Shown: in pieces, positions 26,255-31,222 of the stretch
Layout of the letters: each line of letters starts with the position of its first letter
Numbering within the stretch: the first letter of the stretch is position 1
IMG/VR virus record: IMGVR_UViG_3300035181_002522
Coordinates: 32,001 to 96,000 of that record
Origin: a virus
Reading direction: 5' to 3' (one strand)
DNA length: 64,000 bases
Made by a program: the position numbers and the translations under genes
The notes under the pieces: model-generated
Told to the model about the DNA's origin: nothing
The model's database searches: none
What the model saw: the letters and a program-made list of their open reading frames with translations, nothing else

Positions 26255-27013
26255 TTAATTCTTACCTTCGTCTCGTTTTCTTTTTCTAAATGATTGTTTT
26301 AAGTCAAACCCTTTTGAAACAATAAGGTCTTTATCGGCTATTGTAACAGGTGGAACAATATCTAGATTATCTTTTAAGATGTTCCCAAGATAATAATCTA
26401 GTTCTTGATAAAGCCTTTCCGCTGGGTATATTGCAGCAAAACCAAGTTCTGAAAGTCTTGGAATATCTTCATTCACGTAAACATAAACACCATTAGTTTG
26501 AACCTTATGCTGTTTAGAATAAGTGAACCCATTGCAAGTAATATATCCATCAACAAAAAATACTGGCTGTTGAAGTATTCTGCTGACTTCAACTAGTTGG
26601 TCATTCCATTTTGGAATGAAATCTTTTTCATTAATTGGAGACCACCACCAATACAATAATTCTTTCTTTACTATTTGAAATATTCCAGCATCTGTCTCTG
26701 GATTATAAATTTTCCAGGAAGTCCATTTGTCACTGATATCAAATTTTTGTTTGATATTTTTACGAAAACAAAGGTACTGTTTACCACAAACAAAAAGGTA
26801 TTTAATTTGGATATCTTCAATGCCACGGTTAAAATTTAACTTAAATTCTTGAACCTTTAAAGGAACTAGCAAATCATAGCTAAATTCAAAGTTTAATTGT
26901 TTTTTAGCTCCTTCTAAAGATATTTTATTGCGAAGGTAGACAGTGTTAGTGTCTACCCCGAATTGTGTCGAACAGTAATCATAGTAGTCTTTATATTTAC
27001 TAACAATTTTCAC
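26255..27013 (-). CDS. Conserved hypothetical phage protein
   Basis: 252 aa; MKIVSKYKDYYD N-terminus, KGFDLK.SFR C-terminus; AGGAG RBS. Confidence 0.7.
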   Translation of the reverse strand: MKIVSKYKDYYDYCSTQFGVDTNTVYLRNKISLEGAKKQLNFEFSYDLLVPLKVQEFKLNFNRGIEDIQIKYLFVCGKQYLCFRKNIKQKFDISDKWTSWKIYNPETDAGIFQIVKKELLYWWWSPINEKDFIPKWNDQLVEVSRILQQPVFFVDGYITCNGFTYSKQHKVQTNGVYVYVNEDIPRLSELGFAAIYPAERLYQELDYYLGNILKDNLDIVPPVTIADKDLIVSKGFDLKQSFRKRKRDEGKN

Positions 27014-27068: not shown

Positions 27069-28661
27069 TTACAGTTTGCCTGTAGCGAAGTTGCTAATCA
27101 GTTGCGGAACAGCTGAATCAAAACCAACAATATCCAAAGAATGGCTATCAGTTGGGTCAGCTACGGAAAAGTTAGTGACCGTAGTACCACAAATGACATA
27201 TCTAGCTTCTTTGTTGAATGAACCGCGGAACTGCTCCAATGCTTGACGTGGGTGGCAACCACGATTAACTTCATTGTCAGTGATTGACACGAAACAATCC
27301 ACTGGCAATTTATTTGCAATTGCGTAATCGACTGGAGCGGCCAAGTTGGTAGAGCTCCAATTAAAACGACGTACAACTTCCATTGCTTCATTCAAACTCA
27401 TTCGGTCATGAATGTTCAGCTCGCTAAAGCCAGTGCTAAAGCCACAGATAACATAGTTTTTCTCGGTTTTCATGATAGCCATCGCGATAACAGTAGCCGC
27501 TTCAGCCGCAGTGATGTTGTCCAAACCATATACGTGAGTGTTAAACATTGAGCCAGAGCAGTCTATGCCAAGCAAGAAATTTTTGCCGGTTGGCTCAACA
27601 TTTTTGAAGGCTTCATAAAAAGCTGCGTCCAGTGCACTAACGATACGTTGGTTTGGTTGCCAAGTCAAAGAACCTTTAACACTACGTCCAGAACTGTAAG
27701 TTTTCAATGCAGCCAATACGTTGATTGGGTGAATACGAGAGCGCTTCAGTAATTCAGTATCAGAAAGTAAGTTGATAACAGTTTTTGATGCATCAGACAA
27801 TGAGCCTAACATACCAATGCTTGACATACGACCAAGGTTACGTAGCAACGCGGTATAACCGATTTTTTCAATTAGTTTTTCCCAGATTTGAGAATTACGT
27901 AATAGCTGAGTTGGCAGCATTTCCCAAGTTAATCCGTCGTTTTCGATTGCTATGATTGCATTTTTAACCGTTGGGTTTGCATGCAGTTCAGAGAAGACGC
28001 GAACAATTTTAGGAGAAGTTTCAGTGACTTCTTTTGTCACTGCCCAACGATACGCATTTGAGCGCTCTTCGGTATCTGGTTTAACGTGAGCCAAGCGCAA
28101 TACGTCACGGTGTGACCAACCATCACGGCTTTGGTATTTCAGCATTTGGAAAACAACTTTGTCGAGTTCTTTTTTGTTGTACCAGGCAGAGATACCACGT
28201 TTTGCAACTGCATTCCATTTACCTAACTGATTAACCGTCTCAACGAATTGAAACAAGTGTGTACCGATGCGGCAAACTTTTGGCAGAGCGTCATATGCAG
28301 CTTTACGACCAGCTTCATCAGCATAGATGGAAGTCAATGCCAAAGCGAAGATTGCTGGGTCATTTTTAGGTGCGCGACCGCCATTTGAAATTTCAACGAT
28401 ACGGTTAACAACAGTGATTGCGTCTTGTTTGATGAGCTTAATTACATTTGTCGCGGCAGCTTCAGTCAGTTTTTTTGCTGAAGTGTAGTACGTTGGGCGG
28501 TCACTTCCCAATATCAAAAATCTGTCCAAATAGCCCCAGTCATCAAGCTTAAACGTATAGCCACCAGTTGAGTTGACAACCATTTCAGCTTCACGACCAA
28601 CGATAGAACAAGTTACTGGAGTATTTTGAGTTGCTTGCTTGAGGGTTTTTGCATATGACAT
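27069..28661 (-). CDS. rsr: Ro60/Rsr RNA-binding protein (TROVE + vWA)
   Basis: NSTGGY.F, LDRFLILGS...TYY, GRAPKNDP, RIGTHLFQF, KYQSRDGWSHRDVLRLAH, ALLRNLG, SRIHP, MIDAS D.SGSM, TDNE, GFD. Confidence 0.95.
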   Translation of the reverse strand: MSYAKTLKQATQNTPVTCSIVGREAEMVVNSTGGYTFKLDDWGYLDRFLILGSDRPTYYTSAKKLTEAAATNVIKLIKQDAITVVNRIVEISNGGRAPKNDPAIFALALTSIYADEAGRKAAYDALPKVCRIGTHLFQFVETVNQLGKWNAVAKRGISAWYNKKELDKVVFQMLKYQSRDGWSHRDVLRLAHVKPDTEERSNAYRWAVTKEVTETSPKIVRVFSELHANPTVKNAIIAIENDGLTWEMLPTQLLRNSQIWEKLIEKIGYTALLRNLGRMSSIGMLGSLSDASKTVINLLSDTELLKRSRIHPINVLAALKTYSSGRSVKGSLTWQPNQRIVSALDAAFYEAFKNVEPTGKNFLLGIDCSGSMFNTHVYGLDNITAAEAATVIAMAIMKTEKNYVICGFSTGFSELNIHDRMSLNEAMEVVRRFNWSSTNLAAPVDYAIANKLPVDCFVSITDNEVNRGCHPRQALEQFRGSFNKEARYVICGTTVTNFSVADPTDSHSLDIVGFDSAVPQLISNFATGKL

Positions 28662-28694
28662 ATTACGGCTCCATTTATTAGGGCAAAATATAAA

Positions 28695-29016
28695 ACAACT
28701 TAGACAGCAAGTAGTGAAATCGGGAATTTCAGTTTACACCCTATCTTTCCATGCCGAAACAGAGGGTAAAGTACCACAGAGGTCATAACCTATCCTCACA
28801 AAGGGAGTAAGGAATCCCGTCGACAATTAACGTAGTGTCAACTCACGCTTAATAATTCGCTACTAAAAGCTAGTTATGATTTAGCTCATAACGGCATCCC
28901 TGTCACCTGCAGGTCTGGGTGCTCTTGAAGTCGGTCATCCTTTCGAATCCAAACCTTGCAAAAGCATTTATTAGTGACAGTTAAGATAACCAATTTCGAT
29001 CGGCAATCTAAGTTGT
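28695..29016 (-). ncRNA. Long Y-RNA-like (Yrl-type) structured RNA, ~320 nt
   Basis: The ends pair (ACAACUUAGA/UCUAAGUUGU, then GAAAUUGG/CCGAUUUC). 5' GAUCGAA...GGUUAUC resembles the Ro-binding module. Several internal helices have G-U pairs only on the - strand. Directly upstream of Ro60. Confidence 0.7.
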
Positions 29017-29093
29017 AGTTTTTATCTGAACATTAAGTTCAAATTCGTTTCAAGCCAGAAAAGAGTAATTACTTATCAACCTGAAAAAAGGAT

Positions 29094-29143
29094 ATTATAA
29101 CACCACGTAAAATATTTTTACATTTTAGAACGTGGTGTTATAA
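29094..29143 (-). promoter_or_regulatory. Sigma70-like promoter (extended -10 TGtTATAAT) inside a 14-bp inverted repeat
   Basis: TTATAACACCACGT 29095-29108 / ACGTGGTGTTATAA 29130-29143; TATAAT on the - strand at 29094-29099. Confidence 0.55.
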
Positions 29144-29155
29144 CTTTGACAGGAA

Positions 29156-29719
29156 TTAAGCGTCTTTAGTCATCAGTACATCGTCAAACGCACCACCAGC
29201 TCCAAAATGAGCTTTAAGCTGATTATAAGCACGTTGATAAAAATTAAACATTTTGTCAATGTTCGTTTTTAATTTATTCATTGCCGTTGTATCACCACCT
29301 TTTGCGGCTTCTAACTGAGCACGCCATGCTTTCGCTAATGATGGGGCATGAGTTGCTCCAATATCTTGAAGTAGCTCATCAGCATTACGCTTTTCACTAA
29401 ATTCTTTGGGCGCATGCGGGTTATCTAAGCCGTCTAAGAATTTAAAAAAGTTTTTAGAAGCACCTGATTGGTCAATCTTAGAAAAATCGTCTATAACGTC
29501 ACGATCGTCTTTACGACCTAATAGCTGTAGCCCAGCTAGTGCGTTTGACATCTCGTCTAATTCATTATCTTCTAAACTTTCAAGTGGGTTTTCATTTTTC
29601 AAACCAAACTGCGCATGAAGATGTCCAAGGAACTTATCAACTCGTTCCATCAGAATAAATTCTTGCTTATGCTCGTCTCGAATGGTTTGCAACTCTACCA
29701 AGAGTTCAAGTGCAGCCAT
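29156..29719 (-). CDS. Hypothetical helical protein, late-expressed
   Basis: 187 aa; AAGGAG RBS; TATAAATA at 29784-29791 (-). Confidence 0.7.
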   Translation of the reverse strand: MAALELLVELQTIRDEHKQEFILMERVDKFLGHLHAQFGLKNENPLESLEDNELDEMSNALAGLQLLGRKDDRDVIDDFSKIDQSGASKNFFKFLDGLDNPHAPKEFSEKRNADELLQDIGATHAPSLAKAWRAQLEAAKGGDTTAMNKLKTNIDKMFNFYQRAYNQLKAHFGAGGAFDDVLMTKDA

Positions 29720-29804
29720 GTGTATCTCCTTTAAAAAGTATGTTTTTCAATTTGCAAATTGAGCTATAATTTAGCCATAACACTATTTATATGCTTGCAT
29801 AATG

Positions 29805-31222
29805 GAACTGCTACGAAAACTGACAGACTAAGGGTCTTGTCTCTGTCTCTGCGCGCTTATCTTCAGCTTTTCAAAAACGTAGCACTCATAAAAGGAGATT
29901 TAATTGCCTCTTTTTTATGAACTAATGAAGTACTATGAAAACTGACAGACTAAGGGTCTTGTCTGCGTCTCTGCGCGCTTATCTTCAGCTTTTCAAAAAC
30001 GTAGCCTTTATGAAATTCACTTCTATGCAATTTTAAAATTCAGCAAATAGGTTCATTTATAATTTCAATTAAAATTGCACAGAAGTGACCTGCGTCATTC
30101 AGATCAATCAAATTTCTTTTTTTCTTTTTGACTTATCTAGCATCATCTTTGTCTTTTTCCAAAACATAGCGTTTTTGAAAAGACGGATTATTTTGCCCTC
30201 TTTTTGTATCGATGAACTACTACGAAAACTGACAGACTAAGGGTCTTGTCTCTGTCTCTGCGCGCTTATCTTCAGCTTTTCAAAAACGTAGCACTCATAA
30301 AAGGAGACTTAATTTTCTCTTTTTTGTATCAGGGGAACTGCTACGAAAACTGACAGACTAAGGGTCTTGTCTGCGTCTCTGCGCATTTCTTTTTTCGTCT
30401 TTTTAAAAACGTAGCGTTCATGAAATTCACTTCTGTGCAATTTTAAAATTCAACAAATAGGTTCATTTATAATTTCAATTAAAATTCAACAGGGGTGACC
30501 TGCGTCATTCAGATCAATCAAATTTCTTTTTTTCTTTTTGACTTGTCTCGCATCATCTTTGTCTTTTTCCAAAACGTAGCGTTTTTTGTGAACTACTACG
30601 AAAACTGACAGACTAAGGGTCTTGTCTCTGTCTCTGCGCGCTTATCTTCAGCTTTTCAAAAACGTAGCACTCATAAAAGGAGATTTAATTGCCTCTTTTT
30701 TGGGACCAATGAACTGCTATGAAAACTGACAGACTAAGGGTCTTGTCTCGCTTGCAAATATTCTCTCTCTCGTCTTTTCAAAAACGTAGCCTTTTTAAAA
30801 ATCACTTCTGTGCTATTTTAAAATTCAGCAAATAGGTTCATTCATAATTTCAATCAAAATTCAACAGGGGTGACCTGTGTCATTCAGATCAATTGAATTT
30901 CTTTTTTTCTATTTTAACTTGTCTCGCTTGCAAATATTTCTCTCAGCTTTTTCCAAAATGCAGTGTTTTTGTGAACTGCTATGAAAACTGACAGACTAAG
31001 GGTCTTGTCTCTGTCTCGCAATTTCTTTTTTCGTCTTTTTGAAAACGTAGCACTCATAAAAAAAGAGACAATTAAGTCTCTTTTTTTTGAACTAATGAAG
31101 TACTACGAAAAAGGAGATTTAATTGCCTCTTTTTTGTATCAGCGAACTGCTACGAAAACTGACAGACTAAGGGTCTTGTCTGCGTCTCTGCGCATTTCTC
31201 TCAGCTTTTTTAAAAACGTAGC
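29805..31222. repeat. Hierarchical non-coding repeat array
   Basis: GAAAACTGACAGACTAAGGGTCTTGTCT starts at 29815, 29937, 30224, 30345, 30600, 30721, 30983 and 31154. Higher-order period is 376-409 bp. Confidence 0.95.

What the first reader, a model, noticed from the sequence alone, without database searches (positions are those of the whole stretch)
28695..29016. Oversized (~320 nt) Y-RNA-like RNA with a novel multi-helix domain, upstream of a phage Ro60
SEEN: on the - strand the two ends pair (ACAACUUAGA 29016-29007 with UCUAAGUUGU 28704-28695; an internal loop containing GAUC; then GAAAUUGG/CCGAUUUC). Inside are helices CUGUCAC/GUGACAG (enclosing AGGUUUGG/CCAGACCU), GUUAUGA/UCAUAAC, GUUGACA/UGUCGAC, UCCUUAC/GUGAGGA, AGGU/ACCU and UUUACCCU/AGGGUGUAAA. 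AUGCCG could also pair with CGGCAU in the last hairpin as a pseudoknot. Four helices carry G-U pairs that work only on the Ro60 strand. KNOWN: bacterial and some phage Ro60 genes lie beside Y RNAs of roughly 100-150 nt, built from a terminal Ro-binding stem (GNCGAA-type motif) and an effector module that is tRNA-like in YrlA. INFERENCE: a near-match Ro-binding stem here carries a ~260-nt non-tRNA-like domain, suggesting a new Y RNA class that tethers Ro60 to an unknown partner.
Basis: partly seen in the sequence, partly recalled or inferred. Interest (0 to 1): 0.92.

Follow-up and report, generated by a model that had tools for sequence, protein, structure and literature searches.

The report
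Oversized Y RNA beside phage Ro60
The 322-base stretch just upstream of a large phage's Ro60 gene is a real, conserved structured RNA that carries the Ro60-docking stem of Y RNAs around an interior about three times the usual size. It belongs to a family of at least 30 such RNAs, which I found neither in Rfam nor in the papers I could search.

Summary
On the minus strand, window 28695-29016 folds as a closed RNA 34 nt upstream of a Ro60 gene (TROVE + vWA_Ro60).

I found 25 relatives by motif plus closing stem and 5 more by eye. They are 256 to about 400 nt long and always sit directly upstream of Ro60 genes 45-88% identical to this one, many on IMG/VR viral contigs of up to 359 kb.

**Shared core, in order:**
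- closing stem H1, a bulged C, then G and 3-4 nt
- helix H2, then UUAUC
- a lineage-specific 100-200 nt domain
- a hairpin, then a 7-bp hairpin (AS), UA and helix P_D
- YYGAA, H2', a U-rich strand and H1'

All four core helices covary: 86-95% paired against 48-73% when strands are swapped between sequences, 0 of 5000 permutations reaching the observed value.

Against the closest relative (70% identical RNA), 11 base pairs changed on both sides and stayed paired.

The order of parts matches the tRNA-like Y RNA YrlA, but T and D arms are absent and no Rfam model matches.

Best reading: an expanded Y RNA, co-transcribed with Ro60. What its large domain binds is unknown. It is a new variant of a known kind. 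This scan noted this same stretch once before.

The parts
28695..29016 (-). The whole 322-nt Y-type RNA, from the outermost pair of the closing stem to its partner
   Evidence: Homologues of 256-400 nt sit in the same place upstream of Ro60.
29003..29016 (-). H1, 5' strand of the closing stem (RNA positions 1-14). It pairs with 28695-28708.
   Evidence: Across 15 family members, 95% of cells are paired against 56.5% after permutation, 0 of 5000 as high. In the MAFFT alignment, 8 of 9 pairs show compensatory change.
28695..28708 (-). H1, 3' strand (RNA positions 309-322), preceded by the U-rich internal-loop strand CACUACUU
28997..29004 (-). Ro60-motif region GCCGAUCG. It holds the bulged C and then G-A, which can pair with the UU before H1'. 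It is a near-match to GNCGAAN0-1G.
   Evidence: Sequence; motif definition from Chen et al. 2014, PMC4201824. L012 has the exact motif GCCGAACG.
28990..28997 (-). H2, 5' strand GAAAUUGG (positions 20-27). It pairs with 28716-28723.
   Evidence: 90.5% paired against 72.9% after permutation, 0 of 5000 as high
28985..28989 (-). UUAUC, the conserved junction strand. It equals the 'YUAY' that opens the V loop in YrlA.
   Evidence: Present in nearly all Y-like RNAs next to Ro60 in the fetched loci. YUAY is described in PMC4201824.
28899..28913 (-). Block CCUGCAGGUGACAGG, identical in win, L005 and L006. It contains the 3' strand of helix P_a (GGUGA pairs with UCACU at 28973-28977). It resembles the conserved GUGAAAGACAAGC block of other lineages.
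28928..28957 (-). Hairpin b: AAG, GU, UUGG, the 14-nt loop AUUCGAAAGGAUGA, CCGA, CUU
Evidence: Kept in L005 (U-G becomes U-A) and, with a similar loop, in L006.
28873..28892 (-). Hairpin c, GUUAUGA/UCAUAAC, followed by UAGC
   Evidence: Four pairs changed on both sides against L005, none broken. A hairpin followed by UAG is also present in L006 and L017 (by eye).
28849..28866 (-).
   Evidence: One double and one single compensatory change against L005. L006 has ACUUA/UAAGU with loop CCGAAC (by eye).
28819..28842 (-). Hairpin e, GUUGACA/UGUCGAC with conserved loop CUACGUUAAU. It stands where YrlA has its T arm but has no T-loop.
   Evidence: Two double and three single compensatory changes against L005. 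Every family member has a hairpin here. No T arm was detected.
28793..28813 (-). AS: a 7-bp hairpin UCCUUAC/GUGAGGA with a 7-nt loop, directly followed by UA
   Evidence: Across 18 members, 86.5% paired against 47.6% after permutation, 0 of 5000 as high. It has the same geometry as the acceptor-like hairpin of canonical YrlA-type RNAs.
28724..28792 (-). UA, helix P_D (GGUU at 28787-28790 with AACU at 28731-28734), an inner helix with a UUCG-capped hairpin, then GAAAUUC leading into H2'
   Evidence: The second P_D pair covaries: G-C in 12 members, A-U in 5. Overall 88.9% paired against 66.4% after permutation.
28716..28723 (-). H2, 3' strand CCGAUUUC (positions 294-301)
28666..28687 (-). Leader hairpin between the RNA and the start codon: UUUG-CCC, a loop, GGAGC-CG. 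It holds the Shine-Dalgarno GGAG.
   Evidence: The element UUUGC, loop, GCCG is conserved before the start codon throughout this Ro60 clade. It is also present in L380 and L381, which lack the large RNA.
27069..28661 (-). Ro60 gene, 530 aa
   Evidence: Pfam vWA_Ro60 3e-46 and TROVE 2e-40; PHROG 850, RNA-binding protein
29017..29147 (-). Upstream spacer. It holds a long terminator-like hairpin with a U-run after the 187-aa gene (about 29086-29147), then about 70 nt with an inverted repeat TTGAAC/GTTCA (29025-29043) and an A/T-rich -10-like box just before the RNA.
   Evidence: Sequence. No sigma-70 consensus promoter was found here. Homologues L013 and L012 have TTTACT-16-TATAAT and TTTATA-17-TATAAT with TG, ending 7-8 and 3-4 nt before H1.

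Best explanation
This is an expanded Y RNA, the RNA partner of the phage's Ro60 protein.

**Shown:** it is a conserved, covarying, strand-specific structured RNA that sits directly upstream of Ro60 on the same strand.

**Shown:** its two ends form the Y-RNA docking module. This is the closing stem H1, a bulged C followed by G(A), a U-rich opposite strand, helix H2 and the UUAUC junction. The same module is seen in the 65-145-nt YrlA/YrlB-type RNAs beside other Ro60 genes.

**Inferred:** Ro60 binds this module on the outside of its ring, as in the Xenopus Ro60-Y RNA structure and as assumed for bacterial YrlA.

**Shown:** the interior keeps the order of parts of YrlA but lacks T and D loops, and it carries 100-200 nt of extra, lineage-specific helices.

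**Inferred:** this interior is the effector or adaptor module. It presents Ro60 to, or shields it from, another factor. The only precedents are PNPase with Deinococcus Yrn1 and host PNPase with Thermus phage phiLo Yrl RNAs.

**Inferred from layout:** transcription starts at the base of H1. There is no terminator before Ro60, so RNA and Ro60 are made from one transcript and the RNA is either cut out or acts while still attached. A conserved hairpin carrying a second CG-type motif at the ribosome-binding site may let Ro60 regulate its own translation.
For: - **The gene.** It is Ro60.
- **No other family.** There is no Rfam or tRNA match.
- **The family.** 18 distinct large RNAs came from protein-guided loci. 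Seven more came from viral contigs and five were found by eye. All lie upstream of Ro60 on the same strand, 24-150 nt from the start codon in nearly all members (308 nt in L138).
- **Covariation, permutation tests.** H1 is 95% paired against 56.5%, H2 90.5% against 72.9%, AS 86.5% against 47.6% and P_D 88.9% against 66.4%. None of 5000 permutations reached the observed value in any case.
- **Closest relative.** 11 pairs changed on both sides, against 0-3 in slid controls, with 94.3% of cells paired.
- **The module is Ro60-linked.** The CG...RUUAUC motif recurs beside Ro60 in metagenomic, viral and bacterial loci, with closed sizes clustering at about 70 and 110-145 nt. One of these hits Rfam YrlA.
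- **Published motif.** GNCGAAN0-1G and YUAY are described in Chen et al. 2014, PMC4201824.
- **Promoters.** Extended -10 promoters end a few nt before H1 in L013 and L012.
- **Phage precedent.** A phage Ro60 binds upstream Yrl RNAs and host PNPase in PMC12135203.
Against: - No expression, processing or binding data exist, and the host is unknown.
- The window's motif is GCCGAUCG, one mismatch from GNCGAA. Most of this clade reads RCCGNNNG.
- No terminator separates the RNA from Ro60, so a purely cis-acting leader is not excluded.
- No sigma-70 type promoter is seen in the window itself.
- The structure of the 5' half of the interior (P_a, hairpin b) rests on three or four sequences only.
- MAFFT plus RNAalifold on the whole family recovers only H1. 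The core helices were therefore aligned by motif anchors that I chose, which could favour my model. The cross-sequence permutation controls address this only in part.
- The same genome also encodes canonical tRNA-like Y RNAs elsewhere, so this RNA need not be the main Ro60 partner.
Confidence: 0.72

Rival explanations
1. It is a cis-acting 5' leader of the Ro60 mRNA. The structured region and the hairpin at the ribosome-binding site are an operator that mimics a Y RNA. Ro60 binds its own message and sets its own synthesis, and no free RNA is released.
For: - Only 34 nt separate the RNA from the start codon, and no terminator lies between them.
- GC-rich members have no U-run after H1.
- A hairpin flanked by UUU and CG overlaps the Shine-Dalgarno sequence and is conserved across the clade, even where the large RNA is absent.
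- Several bacterial Ro60 genes show a hairpin followed by CGAA just before AGGAGG (L184, L154, L202).
Against: - Y RNAs of Salmonella, Mycobacterium and Deinococcus are also encoded next to or within the Ro60 operon and are nevertheless stable trans-acting RNAs (Chen et al. 2014, PMC4201824).
- A 260-nt conserved interior is far more than an operator needs.
- In several lineages a separate small Y RNA precedes the large one in tandem, as in known Y RNA arrays.
- The two readings are not exclusive.
Confidence: 0.2
2. It is a different kind of RNA, such as a ribozyme, a riboswitch-like sensor or a decoy of a host RNA. On this reading it merely uses a Y-like closing stem, and its function does not depend on Ro60.
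For: - The interior is large and has invariant single-stranded blocks, for example CCUGCAGGUGACAGG in three lineages and GUUGAAAGACAAGC in others.
- It matches no known family.
Against: - Every member found lies directly upstream of Ro60.
- The conserved closing module is the one shared with small Y RNAs.
- No copy was seen away from Ro60. A scan of viral contigs with the 15-nt block gave only chance hits.
Confidence: 0.05
3. It is a chance fold of an AT-rich intergenic spacer with no function.
For: Both strands fold better than shuffles, so the energy alone proves little.
Against: - There are compensatory changes in at least eight helices.
- Size and position are conserved across Ro60 proteins only 45% identical.
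Confidence: 0.02

Closest known systems
YrlA, the tRNA-like Y RNA of bacteria and mycobacteriophages (Rfam RF02553; Chen et al. 2014, PMC4201824)
   Same: - It is encoded next to Ro60 on the same strand.
- The ends form a stem with a GNCGAA-type motif.
- YUAY (here UUAUC) follows the second helix.
- The order of parts is the same: a variable region, a hairpin, a 7-bp closed 'acceptor-like' hairpin, UA, a helix, then the return strand.
   Different: - It is 322 nt long, against about 100-145 nt.
- It has no T-loop or D-loop.
- It does not hit the YrlA or tRNA models at E <= 10.
- It carries 100-200 nt of extra helices in the variable region and a longer helix with a UUCG hairpin where the D arm would be.
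- The motif reads RCCGNNNG in most of the clade.
YrlB and other small Y RNAs, including Yrl1/Yrl2 of Thermus phage phiLo (PMC12135203)
   Same: It has the same docking module of stem, bulge and stem with a CG(AA) motif, upstream of a phage Ro60. Small RNAs of 65-76 nt with the identical H1, C-G, H2, UUAUC and GAA frame occur in L008, in many other loci and in this same genome.
   Different: In those RNAs the apical part is a short loop. Here it is a multi-helix domain of about 260 nt.
Deinococcus radiodurans Yrn1 (the Y RNA that tethers Rsr to PNPase)
   Same: It offers the same concept: a Ro60-binding stem plus a larger effector module that binds another protein (as described in PMC4201824).
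   Different: Yrn1 is about 120 nt long and keeps a T-like stem-loop. No partner is known here.
tRNA-shaped Y RNAs of large phages
   Same: They use the same docking module, and the same phage encodes both kinds.
   Different: Those are complete tRNA shapes whose anticodon arm is replaced by the docking hairpin. The RNA studied here has its ends at the docking stem and no tRNA loops.
Large ornate phage-associated RNAs such as GOLLD and ROOL (recalled from memory; both are Rfam families)
   Same: They are large, multi-helix non-coding RNAs found in phages and of unknown function.
   Different: No Rfam match was found. Those RNAs are not linked to Ro60 and lack the Y-RNA closing module.

Membership tests
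Y RNA (Ro60-associated non-coding RNA, broad sense) | Encoded close to a Ro60/TROVE gene on the same strand (Chen et al. 2014 used 'within 4 kb, same strand') | tested here: met
   The RNA ends 34 nt before the Ro60 start codon on the same strand. The same holds in all 25 or more relatives.
Y RNA (Ro60-associated non-coding RNA, broad sense) | The 5' and 3' ends pair into a stem that carries the conserved Ro60-binding motif (GGUCCGA in vertebrates, GNCGAAN0-1G in bacteria) | tested here: inconclusive
   The stem, the bulged C, G-A opposite UU and the second helix are all present and covary. The motif here is GCCGAUCG, one mismatch from the published form. L012 has the exact motif, but most of the clade reads RCCGNNNG.
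Y RNA (Ro60-associated non-coding RNA, broad sense) | Physical binding to Ro60 and existence as a discrete stable RNA | not testable with these tools
   This is an uncultivated phage record with no transcript or binding data.
YrlA (Rfam RF02553) | Match to the covariance model at its gathering score (69 bits) | tested here: not met
   No YrlA hit appears in 28500-29300 even at E <= 10. None appears in L005, L012, L013 or L046 at E <= 0.1. Smaller Y RNAs give positive controls: L073 at 41 bits and L287 at 29 bits.
YrlA (Rfam RF02553) | A tRNA-like domain with a conserved T stem-loop and D stem-loop | tested here: not met
   Pattern and pairing scans found a T-arm-like site in 2 of 25 large RNAs (both a chance AUUUC/GAAAU site) and a D-arm-like site in 0 of 25. 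The mid-size set gave 12 of 27 and 7 of 27. ARAGORN finds nothing.
YrlA (Rfam RF02553) | Order of parts: docking stem, YUAY, V region, a hairpin, a closed acceptor-like hairpin, UA, a helix, the return strand | tested here: met
   UUAUC follows H2. The AS hairpin has 7 bp and a 7-nt loop and is followed by UA and the covarying helix P_D. Compare the canonical examples.
YrlA / YrlB | Size of about 70-145 nt | tested here: not met
   This RNA is 322 nt and the family spans 256 to about 400 nt. Well-closed Y RNAs beside bacterial Ro60 cluster at about 70 and 110-145 nt.
Vertebrate Y_RNA, tmRNA, introns, riboswitches and all other Rfam 15 families | Match to the family's covariance model | tested here: not met
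   No hit reaches a gathering score in the 64-kb window. In the region searched at E <= 10, only chance-level hits appear, the strongest (17 bits) on the terminator-like hairpin upstream; one 12.5-bit plus-strand hit (SCARNA13, E 0.99) overlaps the 5' end of the RNA.

The most novel reading that the evidence does not exclude
The roughly 260-nt interior is a new effector module of the Ro60 particle. On this reading a clade of large phages has rebuilt the tRNA-mimic part of YrlA into a bigger scaffold. That scaffold recruits a partner other than the known one (PNPase) or imitates a host RNA. Ro60 in turn controls its own synthesis through a second, hairpin-type docking site at its ribosome-binding site.
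Probability: 0.3. Interest if true: 0.75.

Novelty: new variant of a known kind. Interest (0 to 1): 0.6.

Why it matters
Y RNAs are thought of as small adaptors of about 70-150 nt. Their variable part decides what Ro60 does: it gates the ring, tethers PNPase or mimics tRNA.

A conserved family two to three times larger shows that this effector part can be rebuilt. The family keeps the docking module and the skeleton of YrlA but has lost the tRNA loops.

It also offers at least 30 natural variants for asking what a phage wants from Ro60. The same phage encodes small, tRNA-like and tRNA-shaped Y RNAs as well, so one Ro60 may be programmed by several RNAs during infection.

The conserved hairpin at the Ro60 ribosome-binding site gives a directly testable idea for Ro60 autoregulation.

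Tried and rejected
**Searches that found nothing useful**
- Rfam at gathering scores over the whole window, and at E <= 10 over the region: no family.
- ARAGORN: no tRNA or tmRNA in the window.
- blastn of the region against 50,697 phage records: no match.
- tblastn of Ro60 against the same records: only relatives at 43% identity or less, from actinophages.
- The pattern CCTGCAGGTGACAGG in viral contigs: 74 hits, none beside Ro60 or a docking motif, so all are chance.
- The 5' docking pattern in viral contigs: mostly chance hits, but 4 lay beside Ro60.

**Alignments that failed**
- MAFFT plus RNAalifold on 8 or 4 full-length family members recovers only the closing stem, because the interiors misalign.
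- MAFFT of the 3' modules was also too poor to write a structure on.
- I therefore aligned the helices by sequence anchors and tested them by permutation.

- Helix AGGUUUGG/CCAGACCU.
- Pseudoknot AUGCCG/CGGCAU.

**Neighbouring proteins, as possible partners**
- The 187-aa and 252-aa proteins are conserved in synteny. Pfam gives nothing and PHROGs gives nothing beyond an unnamed family.
- AlphaFold models have mean pLDDT 62 and 55, too poor for a fold search.
- The protein atlas gave no usable hit.

**Other checks**
- RtcB, RNase PH/PNPase and CCA-adding enzyme families were not found in the 164 kb held. The record is only 46% complete, so this says little.
- The Annual Review on bacterial Ro60 (PMC10870794) is not held.
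- Three literature searches found no description of Y RNAs of this size.

Full report
**What is there.** The window is bases 32001-96000 of a 164-kb IMG/VR virus record rated 46% complete, so it comes from a large phage. Its G+C content is 36%. The minus-strand ORF 27069-28661 encodes a 530-aa Ro60, with Pfam vWA_Ro60 at 3e-46 and TROVE at 2e-40. Between it and the preceding 187-aa gene lie 494 non-coding bases.

The plus strand folds as well (z -3.8). Energy therefore neither proves function nor picks the strand.

No Rfam family matches, whether at gathering scores over the window or at E <= 10 over the region. ARAGORN finds nothing.

**Relatives.** DNA search of phage records found nothing. 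The Ro60 protein, however, has relatives at 88, 65, 60, 59, 58, 57 and 54% identity in metagenome assemblies. Their contigs show the same gene order: non-specific endonuclease, a protein of about 186 aa, a long spacer, Ro60, a protein of about 235 aa, and DHFR.

Further Ro60 loci came from JGI metagenomes, GTDB genomes and IMG/VR. In these loci the motif CG, 9-14 nt, then RUUAUC recurs beside Ro60, often in tandem.

When each motif is closed by its best lower stem, well-supported sizes fall at about 65-76 nt and 95-145 nt. The second group shows plain T arms, a 7-bp closed hairpin and UAGCUCA..GGUAGAGC D arms. These are YrlB-like and YrlA-like RNAs, and one of them hits Rfam YrlA.

A third group of 256-364 nt has closing stems of 10-14 pairs. 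It lies directly upstream of every Ro60 that is 45% or more identical to the window's, with few exceptions. IMG/VR adds seven more, and five with UUACC or UUAAC variants were seen by eye. Several are on contigs of 343-359 kb.

**Common architecture.** The parts run in this order:
- H1, a bulged C, G and 3-4 nt, then H2 and UUAUC
- a variable domain of 100-200 nt
- a hairpin and a short linker, often RUAGNN
- a 7-bp hairpin (AS), often UAC...GUG, then UA
- helix P_D, which begins GR and encloses variable hairpins, often UUCG-capped
- YYGAA and 3-4 nt, H2', C with 2-5 nt and UUU(U), then H1'

**Covariation.** I paired each sequence's own strands and compared that with strands swapped among sequences, using 5000 permutations:

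| Helix | Own strands paired | After permutation | Permutations as high |
|---|---|---|---|
| H1 | 95.0% | 56.5% | 0 |
| H2 | 90.5% | 72.9% | 0 |
| AS | 86.5% | 47.6% | 0 |
| P_D | 88.9% | 66.4% | 0 |

The second P_D pair switches cleanly between G-C (12 members) and A-U (5 members).

Against L005 (RNA 70% identical), a hand-revised model gives 94.3% of cells paired. Eleven pairs changed on both sides, against 0-3 when partners are slid by 1-3 columns. Hairpins c, d, e and AS show 15 changed pairs, and all 15 are still paired.

G-U pairs at a dozen or more positions fix the strand as that of Ro60.

- AGGUUUGG/CCAGACCU is broken at 3 of 8 pairs in L005. It is replaced by a local hairpin whose 14-nt loop is conserved (UCGAA.G.GGA, also in L006).
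- The pseudoknot is broken at 4 of 6 pairs.
- CUGUCAC/GUGACAG is conserved only as UCACY/GGUGA.
- AGGU/ACCU competes with the family-wide P_D.
- A further hairpin, UUAGUA/UAUUAA, is supported.

**Relation to known Y RNAs.** Chen et al. 2014 (PMC4201824) define bacterial and phage YrlA by four features. These are a 5' GNCGAAN0-1G motif, a YUAY that opens the V loop, T and D stem-loops, and a closed stem between them that stands for the acceptor stem.

The window RNA has GCCGAUCG (one mismatch) and UUAUC. It has a 7-bp hairpin with a 7-nt loop, followed by UA and a helix. The skeleton therefore matches. There is no T-loop or D-loop in any of 25 large members, no hit to the YrlA or tRNA models, and a size two to three times larger.

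I therefore file it as working like a Y RNA and descended from the YrlA layout, but not as a member of RF02553.

**Transcription.** In L013 and L012, extended -10 promoters (TTTACT-16-TATAAT and TTTATA-17-TATAAT, both with TG) end a few bases before H1. Transcription should therefore start at the foot of the stem.

The window and L005 instead have a conserved inverted repeat (TTGAAC/GTTCA) and an A/T-rich box, with no sigma-70 consensus.

No terminator lies between the RNA and Ro60, and GC-rich members have no U-run after H1. The RNA and Ro60 are therefore probably co-transcribed.

**Leader hairpin.** Just before the start codon, the clade conserves a hairpin flanked by UUU and CG. It reads UUUGCUGC, a loop, GCAGCCG in GC-rich members and UUUGCUUU, a loop, GGAGCCG in AT-rich ones, where it holds the Shine-Dalgarno sequence. 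It persists in L380 and L381, which have no large RNA.

Its flanks copy those of the docking module. This suggests, but does not show, that Ro60 binds its own leader.

**Function.** The partner of the large domain is unknown. The syntenic 187-aa and 252-aa proteins gave no family, fold or atlas lead. No RtcB, PNPase-type or CCA-adding genes occur in the 164 kb held. The only precedents are PNPase tethering by Deinococcus Yrn1 and host PNPase binding by phiLo Yrl RNAs (PMC12135203).

**Novelty.** Three full-text searches and the papers I read describe Y RNAs of ordinary size, and "a tRNA-like partner" in jumbo phages (PMC7824862). Rfam 15 has no such family.

My verdict is a real feature and a new, expanded variant of a known kind of RNA.

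Noticed in passing
window 28666-28687 (- strand); also L006, L008, L009, L012, L013, L015, L134-L141, L143, L046, L380, L381 just before the Ro60 start codon: A hairpin flanked by UUU on the 5' side and CG on the 3' side is conserved immediately upstream of the Ro60 start codon. In AT-rich members its 3' strand is the Shine-Dalgarno GGAG. It is present even where no large RNA precedes it. Its flanks copy those of the Y-RNA docking module, so it may be a site of Ro60 autoregulation.
   Followed up: partly
L184, L154, L202 (bacterial Ro60 loci), about 10-30 nt before the start codon: Several bacterial Ro60 genes have a GC-rich hairpin followed directly by CGAA or CGG and then AGGAGG. That places a GNCGAA-type motif on the ribosome-binding site. 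This may be the same autoregulatory idea in cellular Ro60 genes.
   Followed up: no
L287:2546-2668 (own genome, G000:C1:110845-110967, outside the window): This is a complete tRNA shape with a 7-bp acceptor stem, encoded CCA, a D arm, a long variable arm and a T arm. Its anticodon arm is replaced by a 69-nt Y-RNA docking hairpin made of H2, a U-run opposite C-G, and H1 capped by GCAA. It scores 40.6 bits on Rfam tRNA. Two more units of this kind lie at L287:290-500. Earlier notes of this scan describe the same layout in other phages.
   Followed up: partly
L287:2130-2320 and L287:1945-2035 (own genome, about 110.25-110.62 kb): YrlA-type modules in the canonical order of T arm, closed hairpin, then UAGCUCAG..UAGAG D arm. 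One scores 29 bits on Rfam YrlA and has a long closing stem.
   Followed up: partly
L288:164-239 (own genome, G000:C1:118363-118438): A 76-nt small Y RNA with a 12-bp closing stem, bulged C, GCUGU, UAAUGGG, UUAUC and a U-rich return strand. The phage thus encodes small, tRNA-like, tRNA-shaped and large Y RNAs. Eleven tRNA genes lie at 114.8-133.4 kb.
   Followed up: partly
window 29768-31222: A repeat array between the 187-aa gene and the endonuclease gene. It has eight copies of a 116-nt unit at 121-287 nt spacing, interleaved with 80-193 nt repeats. It carries no Y-RNA docking motif and is absent from the syntenic loci.
   Followed up: partly
window 29025-29043 and 29086-29147 (- strand): A long AU-rich hairpin followed by UUUUUU lies after the 187-aa gene and looks like a terminator. 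Just upstream of the RNA, an inverted repeat TTGAAC-N5-GTTCA is conserved in L005 with a changed loop. It could be an operator or a small hairpin where a promoter is expected.
   Followed up: no
L136, L139, L141, L143, L137, L134, L372, L374 (about 110-130 nt upstream of the large RNA): In the GC-richer lineages a small Y RNA of about 60-110 nt precedes the large one in tandem, so the two kinds coexist in one operon.
   Followed up: partly
L008:748-820 and L008:840-905: In one syntenic relative the spacer holds a tRNA (63 bits, CAU anticodon) and a minimal 60-nt Y RNA instead of the large RNA. The interior has therefore been gained or lost within one phage lineage.
   Followed up: partly
window 29156-29719 and 26255-27013 (- strand): The 187-aa protein (all-helical model) and the 252-aa protein (PHROG 4243) flank the RNA-Ro60 pair in all syntenic phages. 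The 187-aa protein is better conserved than Ro60 itself: 93% and 74% identity in L005 and L006, where Ro60 is 88% and 65%. Their functions are unknown, and they are candidate partners of the particle.
   Followed up: partly
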